IMG/VR virus record: IMGVR_UViG_2671181056_000012 | Location: 1-17,566 of that record | Strand: one strand, 5' to 3' | From: a virus | Lineage: Duplodnaviria; Heunggongvirae; Uroviricota; Caudoviricetes | Length of the DNA stretch: 17,566 bases | Part shown: positions 15,001 through 17,566 of the stretch, piece by piece | Numbering within the stretch: the stretch's first letter is position 1 | Layout: each line of letters starts with the position of its first letter | Made by a program: the position numbers

Positions 15001-17566
15001 GGATTAAGTGAACGGACGTGGCGACGCTGGCAAACGTCGTGGGAAGACAAGCGTGTCAGCACGGTCAGGCCCTCCCCGGTGAACCAGTTAAGTGAGCAAG
15101 AAGAGCAACAGATACTGGCAGTGTGCCATCAGCCAGACTACGCCAGCCTCCCCCCGTCACAAATCGTACCGGCGTTGGCGGATAAGGGGATTTATCTGGC
15201 AAGCGAGTCAACCTTTTACCGGGTACTGCGTCGTCATGGAGAGGTGCATCGTCGGGGACGGCAACGGGCAGCGCAGAAAGTCACCCCGGCTACGAGTTGG
15301 CAGGCCAGCGGGCCGAATGAGGTGTGGACATGGGACATTACATGGGTTCCGTCAACCGTAAAGGGGCGCTGGTTTTACCTGTATCTGGTGGAAGACCTCT
15401 ACAGCCGAAAAATCGTGGGATATGAAGTGCATGAAACTGAAAGTGGTGAGCAGGCGGCAGCCCTGATACAACGCACGGTCCTTCGGGAAGGATGCTGGCA
15501 AAACCCGCCGGTACTGCATGCGGACAACGGCGCGGCGATGAAGTCACAGACGTTGCAAATGAAGCTACACGAGCTGGCGATAACCCCCTCTCACAGCCGG
15601 CCGGGAGTGAGTAACGATAATGCGTATGTGGAGTCGCTGTTCCGGACACTGAAATATGTCCCGCAGTGGCCGTCATCAGGGTTCGGCAAGCTGGAGGAGG
15701 CGCGTGAATGGATAGAGGTTTTTGCTCAGTGGTATAACGAAATGCACAGACATAGCGGCATCAGGTATGTGACGCCGGGTCAGCGACATCGTGGAGAAGA
15801 CGGTGTGTTGCTGAAAAATCGGGATGAGGTGTACAAAAAGGCAAAAGCGGAACGGCCTGAACGCTGGTCTGGCAGAACACGAAACTGGCATCCGGTAGGC
15901 AAGGTAATGCTGAATCCAGAACGGGAAAAACAGGCAGCCTAAATCAACCGGGGGTGCCAACTACCTTGACACTTACCGGTAGTTTCCTTGAGCGGATTAA
16001 TGATGTTCTTCAAGACCCAATCACACCCAGGCTGCGCCGGAACACGTCGTGTATTGGTATTAAATGGCATTCCTCGTTCTTGCCATTTCTTAGCGGCGTT
16101 AATTGTATAGCCGTATAAGCGGGAAATTTCTGTAAGGGTTAATTCTTCTTTCATCCGGTTATCCTCCATTAAATTTGCGTAAAATTATTTATCTGATCTG
16201 CGCATTCAGGAGAGCGCCTAAAACGCTTTATAACGAAGGGAAAGATCGAGGCGAGGAAAGGGATTGGCTGGTGTTAATAGTCGCGTAGCGACCGCGCTGG
16301 TGGGCTGCACTGCACCTGTTTTGAAATCTCACACGCACATCAAAAACCGGGGTGCCGAAAACTCCCTTTATTTCACCCGTGGAACAGTACCTTTTGATTT
16401 TGTCAAGTATTTTTTATAAATAATCGAAAATATTTTTCACGCGAGGGCAAATCATGAAGACTAAAGATATTAAGATTGACTTTGAAACTGTTGATGACGT
16501 TCGGGAACATCGTATTGATTCTACTGGCTGCATCTTCCAGCTTACTAACTCCCCTATTGGATTGATTATCTATGTAGCAGAAGATGACGTGTACGCTATA
16601 TGGGATGGACAGGATGAGTTTAAAGGCGGGAATAGCCATCTGATCAATACTCATGAGGGATTCGATCCGACTCCTGTCTGTATGCTTGCTTATCACGTAA
16701 CACTGGATGAACTACCGGAAGCAAGCGCGCGTATCCGTAAAATGAAAGATATTAAGTGATGTAAGTGATTGATTCTATAGCCCTGTCCTTGTGATGGGGC
16801 TTTTTTATTGCAAAAATTTTAGTTATTGGGGTTTACAACATTTAGGTTTGCCAATTCGCCTGGCTAACTCTTGCTGAGTGATTTCTGACTGTAAAAAAGC
16901 ATTTAACAGCAATACTTTAGAGGCGACGCTCAAAGGTACTTCAATAAAGTGATCATGACTATTTAATGGCGAAGGTAACGGGATAAGCTCGTTATCTTCA
17001 AAATAAAAATCAAATGCGGTCAGTAAAGCATCTTTTGCCGCTTCCATCGCTTCAGCGACAGTTTCGCCCTGCGTCAACGCTTCAGGGATATCCACAAAAG
17101 AAACCATATAACCGCCTTCCGGCGCGGGTGTAAGAGTGACGGGATAACGCATAATTTCGACTGTCTCTCGCATGTCATTAACCTTTTTAATTGGCGATTA
17201 ACTCAAACCGAGTTGTTTCAGGATTGCTTTACGCAGGAGTGACGCGGCATGACACTGCGCCTCCCATGAAACCTGAGTTTCAAATGGTTGCGGCCATTCG
17301 CTACATCGACGCCCTGAGATTCGAGCCAACGTCTGAACTCGCTTTGTTTCACATCGCCTCCCTGCCGCTGAGTATATCAATAAAGTAAACATTAGTGTTT
17401 ACCCCTATGTGTAATTTGCTCGAAAATAGCACTAAATCGCCGCAACGGCAGAATGCAATGCAAAATCAGGAAGGAAGATTCCAGAATTTCTTTGCGCTAA
17501 TTTGCAAAACTGAATAATAATGAGGTAGCCTGAGTTTAACGGACACTCCTTCCTGAAATAGAATGG

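What the first reader, a model, noticed from the sequence alone, without database searches (positions are those of the whole stretch)
17198..17352. hicA appears inactivated by a frameshift consistent with a deletion between short direct repeats
The N-terminal 41 codons match recalled HicA (one substitution), then the frame ends after SCVKQS while the canonical C-terminus LRKAILKQLGLS is in another frame. The junction CTGCG-TAAAGCA suggests a deletion between two CTGCG repeats. Loss of toxin function would be expected if the antitoxin's autoregulatory domain was destroyed by the insertion.
Basis: partly seen in the sequence, partly recalled or inferred. Interest (0 to 1): 0.45.

Follow-up and report, generated by a model that had tools for sequence, protein, structure and literature searches.

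The report
Inherited 22-bp deletion pseudogene of hicA
The hicA toxin gene here is dead because of a 22-base deletion, but this is a common inherited E. coli allele, already annotated as a pseudogene in over 800 complete genomes, and is unrelated to the prophage that cuts the neighbouring antitoxin gene.

Summary
hicA (window 17352..17198, minus strand) lacks 22 bp present in K-12 and Sakai hicA. The frame shifts after codon 40 and stops after VKQS, and the old C-terminus LRKAILKQLGLS lies out of frame. Two details need correcting. The flanking repeat in every intact allele examined is TGCG (4 bp), not CTGCG. There are also two substitutions before the break (S21R, P39S), not one.

The interpretation does not hold. 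The same junction occurs in at least 805 of 5426 complete E. coli genomes, annotated 'mRNA interferase, frameshifted'. All ten that I opened outside the prophage-bearing set have a full-length hicB.

The 'insertion' in hicB is a prophage whose relatives carry a large serine recombinase. It sits at one fixed 12-bp core. Of 35 genomes with that junction, 27 keep an intact hicA, so there is no enrichment of the deletion (Fisher p=0.52). The truncated HicB keeps residues 1-104, identical to K-12 HicB, including the Pfam HicB antitoxin domain (the N-terminal part that published work says binds HicA).

The deletion therefore very probably predates the prophage. This is ordinary toxin-first decay of a chromosomal toxin-antitoxin locus.

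One question stays open: the deletion sits on three SNP backgrounds, so it is unclear whether it arose once or more than once.

The parts
17198..17352 (-). hicA pseudogene, from the GTG start at 17352 to the original, now out-of-frame, TAA at 17198-17200. The new premature stop TGA is at 17218-17220.
   Evidence: RefSeq annotates the identical allele as 'mRNA interferase, frameshifted'.
17232..17235 (-). The surviving copy of the TGCG direct repeat, which is the deletion junction. The 22 bp between the two TGCG copies of intact hicA are missing here.
17238..17238 (-). SNP C115T (P39S, CCC>TCC), three bases upstream of the surviving TGCG. It defines the window's haplotype of the deletion allele.
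   Evidence: 606 genomes have T115 plus the deletion; 199 have C115 plus the deletion.
17292..17292 (-). SNP A61C (S21R, AGC>CGC), the second substitution on the window's haplotype.
16823..17152 (-). Truncated hicB: codons 1-104 identical to K-12 HicB, then five phage-encoded codons (CCKPQ) and a stop. An upstream in-frame ATG at 17173 is used in some annotations.
16841..16852 (-). The 12-bp core GGCAAACCTAAA, shared by hicB and the prophage attachment site. Phage-specific DNA ends at 16840.
   Evidence: The same 12 bp are found at the far junction in L3Cip3.
61..16840 (.). Right-hand part of a prophage: capsid-protease fusion, lambda-type portal, terminase gpA, Rha regulator. It is itself interrupted by an IS at about 14373-15971.
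17521..17566 (.). End of an insertion sequence (TGAGGTAGCC...) lying 168 bp upstream of the hicA start, between hicA and yncJ.
   Evidence: homology to uninterrupted loci stops at 17520, and the last 46 bases have hundreds of chromosomal and plasmid copies. Also.

Best explanation
hicA in this window is a non-functional pseudogene allele that the strain inherited, not something that arose in response to the hicB disruption. A 22-bp deletion between two TGCG tetranucleotides, the footprint of replication slippage or microhomology-mediated deletion, shifts the frame after codon 40. It removes the C-terminal third of the 58-residue protein, including the second helix of the alpha-beta-beta-beta-alpha dsRBD fold, and leaves a 44-residue product. 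The allele circulates widely in E. coli next to a full-length hicB. Later and independently, a temperate phage whose relatives carry a large serine recombinase integrated at its fixed site inside hicB and cut off HicB residues 105-138 (half of the HTH domain). Shown here: the deletion, its distribution, the independence of the two lesions, and retention of HicB 1-104. Inferred: the slippage mechanism, loss of toxicity, and the order of events.
For: Exact 22-bp gap flanked by TGCG in intact alleles. Identical junction in 606 + 199 complete genomes, all annotated as frameshifted. Full-length hicB next to the deleted hicA in all ten such loci opened: WCHEC020031, O104:H4, O103:H2, APEC O78, 600468, ST540, NCTC9088, A1. 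The 44-residue product has no Pfam HicA_toxin hit, whereas the intact 58-residue protein reaches 30.9 bits over residues 5-57. Further decay occurs on the same allele: O104:H4 adds A19T, turning Arg7 AGA into TGA, and is annotated 'internal stop'. Both substitutions in the window allele are non-synonymous. The prophage junction in hicB is found with intact hicA in 27 of 35 genomes, with no association. The literature describes chromosomal TA decay through inactive-toxin mutants as a known pattern (PMC7167474).
Against: No experiment shows that the 44-residue fragment is non-toxic or unstable; the catalytic His23 is retained. The order of events in this particular lineage is inferred from population frequencies, not from a phylogeny. 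Two genomes (A30, HCP4S3_I4) carry an intact hicA with the window's SNPs (C61/T115). A simple single-origin history therefore needs one extra event: either repair by recombination or a second, independent deletion.
Confidence: 0.9

Rival explanations
1. Compensatory loss: the prophage destroyed HicB's autoregulatory domain, HicA became harmful, and the deletion was then selected in this lineage.
For: Both lesions coexist in the window, and 8 of the 35 genomes with the prophage junction also have a frameshifted hicA.
Against: The same deletion is found in at least 797 genomes outside the 35 prophage-junction genomes. 27 of 35 prophage-bearing genomes keep an intact hicA, and there is no enrichment (p=0.52). 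The HicA-binding part of HicB is retained. Derepressing P2 gives HicB only (PMC11594946, PMC7167474).
Confidence: 0.03
2. Sequencing or assembly artefact: the 22 bp are present in the real genome.
For: The window looks like a contig bounded by IS repeats at both ends, which suggests a short-read assembly.
Against: The junction is not in a homopolymer. The identical allele, with the same two linked SNPs, is in hundreds of independently sequenced complete genomes.
Confidence: 0.01
3. Recurrent hotspot: the TGCG...TGCG deletion arose at least twice independently, perhaps under selection against HicA. On this view the window's allele descends from an intact C61/T115 ancestor like that of strain A30.
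For: The deletion and the SNP three bases upstream of it fail the four-gamete test: C115-intact, C115-del (199), T115-intact (3) and T115-del (606) all exist. The outcome of a microhomology deletion is deterministic, so identical recurrences are possible.
Against: The deletion backgrounds form a linear chain, A61/C115 (up to 199) to A61/T115 (67) to C61/T115 (about 539), and the fourth combination C61/C115-del is absent (0 of 5426). All sampled deletion alleles share the hicB SNPs G396/A459. That fits one deletion followed by two substitutions in a dead gene. The rare intact T115 allele also carries G209, seen in intact donors and not in the sampled T115-deletion alleles, which could mark repair by recombination.
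Confidence: 0.25
4. The 44-residue product is a functional variant, for example a non-toxic HicB-binding peptide that still modulates HicB repression.
For: The allele is frequent (about 19% of loci). The start codon, the Shine-Dalgarno region and His23 are retained.
Against: It has no HicA_toxin domain hit. A further nonsense mutation is tolerated in O104:H4. Both substitutions are non-synonymous, as expected under relaxed constraint. In this window HicB has lost its DNA-binding domain, so there is nothing left to modulate.
Confidence: 0.05

Closest known systems
E. coli K-12 HicA (b4532, PDB 6HPB chain A), the mRNA interferase toxin of the hicAB module
   Same: Same chromosomal locus (rlhA-yncJ-hicA-hicB-ydcR). 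38 of the first 40 codons are identical. Same GTG start, and the catalytic His23 is present.
   Different: 22 bp are missing. Residues 41-58 (DEIKEPLRKAILKQLGLS) are replaced by VKQS, so the domain is incomplete and no longer recognised by Pfam HicA_toxin.
RefSeq/PGAP pseudogene 'mRNA interferase, frameshifted' at the hicA locus, e.g. WCHEC020031 EDM51_RS06660, APEC O78 APECO78_RS11360, O104:H4 CEQ27_RS02335
   Same: The WCHEC020031 allele is identical to the window over all 155 bp. O103:H2 and APEC O78 show no differences at any variable site of the locus alignment, and share the same junction and the same two SNPs.
   Different: Every such genome I opened outside the prophage-bearing set has a full-length hicB. 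The window adds a prophage in hicB, an IS 168 bp upstream and three private SNPs upstream of hicA.
Decay of the chromosomal ccdO157 toxin-antitoxin system in E. coli (Mine et al. 2009, cited in PMC7167474)
   Same: A chromosomal type II TA locus at a conserved position that degenerates within the species, with the toxin inactivated while the antitoxin persists.
   Different: A different TA family. Here one particular microhomology deletion accounts for hundreds of genomes, rather than many scattered mutations.
Gene-disrupting prophages with large serine recombinases, such as SPbeta in spsM or phi-A118 in comK (recalled from general knowledge, not tested here)
   Same: A relative of this prophage encodes a 559-residue Resolvase + Recombinase + Zn-ribbon recombinase. 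It integrates inside a coding sequence at a fixed short core without rebuilding the 3' end.
   Different: The target is the antitoxin gene hicB. I found no publication naming hicB as an attachment site in the held library. The recombinase end of the prophage lies outside this window.

Membership tests
HicA toxin (Pfam PF07927, dsRBD-fold RNase) | Sequence homology to HicA | tested here: met
   Codons 1-40 align with K-12 HicA with two substitutions. My recalled K-12 HicA sequence is identical to PDB 6HPB chain A over 58/58 residues.
HicA toxin (Pfam PF07927, dsRBD-fold RNase) | Complete alpha-beta-beta-beta-alpha domain of about 55 residues | tested here: not met
   The product is 44 residues with none beyond residue 40 in frame. 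It has no HicA_toxin hit even at E<=10, whereas intact HicA scores 30.9 bits over residues 5-57. The fold topology is from PMC10865869.
HicA toxin (Pfam PF07927, dsRBD-fold RNase) | Conserved catalytic histidine (His23 in E. coli HicA) | tested here: met
   His23 is present in ...NGRNHLKL.... The residue assignment is from PMC11594946.
HicA toxin (Pfam PF07927, dsRBD-fold RNase) | Growth-arresting RNase activity neutralised by HicB | not testable with these tools
   This needs expression of the window allele and of a repaired allele in a hicAB-deleted host.
Known frameshifted hicA allele of E. coli | Identical 22-bp deletion junction at the same chromosomal locus | tested here: met
   The 36-nt junction query matches 606 genomes exactly, all annotated 'mRNA interferase'. 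The sister haplotype is in 199 more.
Microhomology-mediated (slipped-strand) deletion | Short direct repeats flanking the deleted segment in the intact allele, with one copy retained | tested here: met
   TGCG is at both ends of the 22-bp segment in six intact alleles, and a single TGCG is left in the window. By inference, the chance of at least 4 bp of microhomology at a random deletion is about 0.4%.
HicB antitoxin with C-terminal HTH (Class 3 hicAB of PMC10865869) | N-terminal HicB antitoxin domain | tested here: met
   PF15919 hit at 33.4 bits. Residues 1-104 are identical to 6HPB chain B.
HicB antitoxin with C-terminal HTH (Class 3 hicAB of PMC10865869) | C-terminal HTH_3 DNA-binding and dimerisation domain | tested here: not met
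   K-12 HicB has HTH_3 at residues 88-134. The window protein ends at residue 104 plus CCKPQ and has no HTH_3 hit.
Prophage integrated by a large serine recombinase | Resolvase + Recombinase + zinc-ribbon recombinase at one prophage end, with the same short core at both junctions | tested here: inconclusive
   Met in the related prophage of L3Cip3: recombinase at L018 18268-19947 and the 12-bp GGCAAACCTAAA at both junctions. The window holds only the junction next to hicA, not the recombinase end.

The most novel reading that the evidence does not exclude
The hicAB locus may be a recurrent target rather than a passively decaying one. On this reading the same TGCG-to-TGCG deletion arose more than once, and a family of serine-recombinase phages uses hicB as its attachment site. 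Lysogeny would then remove the DNA-binding half of the antitoxin of a module proposed to act in phage defence. That could be counter-defence, or a reversible switch restored on excision.
Probability: 0.1. Interest if true: 0.5.

Novelty: already known. Interest (0 to 1): 0.12.

Why it matters
For annotation, the call is clear: this hicA is a pseudogene, and hicB is a truncated remnant at a prophage junction. More broadly, about one in five E. coli hicAB loci carries this one deletion, so surveys that count hicAB as present by hicB or by locus overestimate functional modules. The data also show that HicB can lose its DNA-binding domain while hicA stays intact in 27 natural genomes. That is a natural experiment consistent with published models in which the N-terminal domain alone neutralises HicA.

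Tried and rejected
1. Rfam scan of the whole window found nothing.
2. Megablast of the window against GenBank phages matched only the IS ends, so the prophage has no close deposited relative at that sensitivity.
3. A scan of GTDB species representatives for the deletion junction found one E. coli assembly (ECGI0523). Its locus carries many extra differences and an indel in hicB, which I suspect are assembly errors, so I did not use it.
4. Literature searches for the hicA frameshift, for hicA in Shigella, and for hicB as a prophage integration site found no specific report.
5. I tried to name the IS at 17521-17566 from an annotated plasmid hit.
6. Automatic inverted-repeat detection for the internal IS found nothing. 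I read the ends by eye.
7. I did not run structure prediction.
8. I considered and rejected assembly error, programmed frameshifting (there is no slippery site, and the allele decays further in O104:H4), and the 64-codon overlapping ORF at 17198-17392, which is merely the old C-terminal frame read upstream through non-coding sequence.

Full report
**What is in the window**

On the minus strand, a GTG at 17352 opens a 44-codon frame, MKQSEFRRWLESQGVDVANGRNHLKLRFHGRRSVMPRHSCVKQS, with its stop at 17218-17220. In another frame, the sequence running to the TAA at 17198-17200 encodes ...LRKAILKQLGLS. Immediately downstream is a hicB reading frame (17173/17152..16823).

The flanking sequence matches the E. 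coli chromosome between yncJ and ydcR. Of 5426 complete genomes, 4253 have this locus.

**Checking the observation**

I aligned the window with K-12 MG1655, O157:H7 Sakai and strain L3Cip3. The result is one clean 22-bp gap and nothing else.

- Intact alleles read CAC-CCC-TGC-GAT-GAG-ATT-AAA-GAA-CCA-TTG-CGT-AAA-GCA.
- The window reads CAC-TCC-TGC-GTA-AAG-CAA-TCC-TGA.
- The deleted block is bounded by TGCG on both sides in all six intact alleles I read (K-12, Sakai, L3Cip3, A30, HCP4S3_I4, OkiPb01695). The bases before the two copies differ (C versus T).
- One TGCG copy survives at window 17232-17235.
- Forty codons, not 41, remain in frame. They carry two changes relative to K-12: S21R (window 17292) and P39S (window 17238).

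A random deletion has roughly a 0.4% chance of 4-bp flanking microhomology. Slipped-strand or microhomology-mediated deletion is therefore the natural mechanism, but this is inference.

**Is the product still a HicA?**

- K-12 HicA is 58 residues with a solved structure (6HPB).
- HicA toxins have the alpha-beta-beta-beta-alpha dsRBD fold, and His23 is the conserved histidine of the E. coli protein (PMC10865869, PMC11594946).
- The intact protein matches Pfam HicA_toxin over residues 5-57 at 30.9 bits.
- The intact allele that carries the window's two substitutions scores 26.6 bits, just under the 27-bit cutoff.
- The 44-residue window product gives no HicA_toxin hit at all.

His23 is kept, but the C-terminal third of the domain is gone. 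Loss of function is very likely, though not demonstrated here.

**How common is the allele?**

- A 36-nt query that can seed only across the junction on the window's background (TCC) matched 606 of 5426 complete genomes at 100%. All are annotated 'mRNA interferase'.
- The records I opened say 'frameshifted'.
- The equivalent query on the K-12-like background (CCC) matched 199 more genomes.

At least 805 genomes carry this deletion, about 19% of those that have the locus. They include O104:H4, O103:H2 and APEC O78. Assembly error is excluded, and the allele is already recorded in public annotation.

O104:H4 carries an additional A19T change that turns Arg7 AGA into TGA, and it is annotated 'internal stop'. 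That is what continued decay of a dead gene looks like.

**What cut hicB**

Homology with uninterrupted hicB stops at window 16841. The window HicB is identical to K-12 HicB (6HPB chain B) for residues 1-104, then reads CCKPQ-stop. It keeps the Pfam HicB antitoxin domain and loses the HTH_3 domain, which lies at residues 88-134 in K-12.

The inserted DNA is a prophage. It encodes a capsid with a prohead protease, a lambda-type portal, terminase gpA and a Rha regulator.

In strain L3Cip3 a related prophage of about 39 kb sits at exactly the same position. Its far end carries a 559-residue recombinase with Resolvase, Recombinase and zinc-ribbon domains, that is, a large serine recombinase. The 12 bp GGCAAACCTAAA occur at both junctions there. 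This is site-specific integration into hicB, not a random insertion.

A variant phage in strain 24AR0357 diverges from hicB straight after GGCAA. That suggests the crossover lies within those five bases; this is inference.

**Are the two lesions linked?**

Thirty-five complete genomes extend past the hicB break into the phage arm.

| Group | hicA deleted | hicA not deleted |
|---|---|---|
| Genomes with the prophage junction in hicB (35) | 8 | 27 |
| Other genomes with the locus (4218) | 797 | 3421 |

- The 27 with an annotated intact hicA include L3Cip3 and O55:H7 DEC5A, which I checked directly.
- The odds ratio is 1.27 and Fisher p = 0.52, so there is no association.
- All ten deletion-carrying loci that I opened outside the prophage set have a full-length hicB.

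The expectation that the toxin must be lost once the antitoxin's regulatory domain is destroyed is not borne out. Mechanistically it is not expected either:

- The N-terminal domain of HicB neutralises HicA by masking its active site (PMC11594946).
- HicBs without any DNA-binding domain exist naturally (Classes 1 and 2; PMC10865869).
- The HicB-repressed promoter P2 produces a transcript that yields only HicB (PMC7167474, PMC11594946).

Losing DNA binding should therefore increase antitoxin, not free the toxin.

**One origin or several?**

I compared sixteen alleles from public genomes with the window's allele over about 700 bp and counted haplotypes genome-wide.

- The deletion occurs on A61/C115 (up to 199 genomes), A61/T115 (67 genomes, the O104:H4 type) and C61/T115 (about 539, including the window).
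- It never occurs on C61/C115 (0 of 5426).
- That is a linear chain. It fits one deletion on a K-12-like hicA followed by C115T and then A61C in a dead gene. Both changes are non-synonymous.
- All sampled deletion alleles share the hicB SNPs G396 and A459, unlike K-12, Sakai and L3Cip3.

Against a simple single origin, two genomes (A30 and HCP4S3_I4) have an intact hicA with C61/T115. The deletion and a SNP three bases upstream of it therefore fail the four-gamete test. Either those two alleles were repaired by recombination, or the deletion happened twice. They also carry G209, which is seen in intact donors and not in the sampled T115-deletion alleles, and that would fit repair. I lean to a single origin, at about 3:1, but cannot settle it without a genome phylogeny.

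**Comparison with what is known**

This is toxin-first decay of a chromosomal type II toxin-antitoxin locus. The pattern is described for E. coli TA systems in general and for ccdO157 in particular (PMC7167474 and references there). I found no paper that describes this specific hicA deletion or hicB as a phage attachment site, but the allele is routinely flagged by PGAP. I rate the finding itself as already known and of low interest. The hicB attachment site and the multi-background deletion are minor additions worth a note.

**Limits**

- No function was tested.
- The phylogroup breadth I mention rests on general knowledge of the named strains.
- Naming the window's left end as IS5 rests on my memory of its terminal repeat.
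- The source organism of the window was not identified. No complete E. coli genome in the collection contains the whole window at high identity.

Noticed in passing
window 61-16852; related loci L003 and L018 (strain L3Cip3): hicB is a fixed attachment site for a family of temperate phages with a large serine recombinase. 35 complete E. coli genomes share the junction, and the 12-bp core GGCAAACCTAAA is at both ends in L3Cip3. Integration removes HicB residues 105-138. No report of this site was found in the held literature.
   Followed up: partly
window 17381, 17404, 17407: Three SNPs private to the window among the 17 alleles compared. All lie within 27 bp upstream of hicA and flank the perfect inverted repeat GTAAACA-N4-TGTTTAC (17385-17402), which looks like a HicB operator. 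There are no other private SNPs in about 680 bp. This could reflect relaxed constraint after loss of the HicB DNA-binding domain, or a small recombination patch.
   Followed up: no
window 17521-17566: An insertion-sequence end (TGAGGTAGCCTGAGTTTAACGG...) sits 168 bp upstream of the hicA start, between hicA and yncJ, in a position where uninterrupted genomes continue into yncJ. Copies occur on many chromosomes, plasmids and Stx2a phages. The IS was not named, and whether it separates hicAB from its upstream promoter P1 was not tested.
   Followed up: partly
window 1-64: The left end of the window is an IS terminus (...CTTATTCGCACCTTCC) followed by CTAG. From memory it matches the IS5 inverted repeat and its CTAG target. 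It interrupts the prophage next to the tail-fibre region. Together with the right end, this suggests the window is a contig bounded by repeats.
   Followed up: no
window about 14373-15971: A two-ORF insertion sequence (HTH_Tnp_1 ORF, then an rve-domain ORF of 331 codons) with imperfect terminal repeats, TGTCAGGATAGTTGTCACCCCC and TGTCAAGGTAGTTGGCACCCCC. It lies inside a prophage gene. The prophage in this strain is therefore itself damaged by at least two IS insertions.
   Followed up: partly
window 10696-11789; L003 13280-14658: A stretch of roughly 1.1-1.4 kb in the prophage has no ORF of 80 codons or more and no annotated gene in the related L3Cip3 prophage. There is no Rfam match.
   Followed up: no
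L008 (O104:H4 FDAARGOS_349), hicA position 19: The O104:H4 outbreak-lineage hicA carries the same 22-bp deletion plus an extra nonsense change (AGA to TGA at codon 7). It is on the intermediate A61/T115 background shared by 67 genomes.
   Followed up: partly
hits H23-H28 (e.g. E. coli S88): About a fifth of complete E. coli genomes match only some 124 bp upstream of hicA and lack hicAB altogether. The module is thus absent, intact or toxin-dead in different lineages.
   Followed up: no
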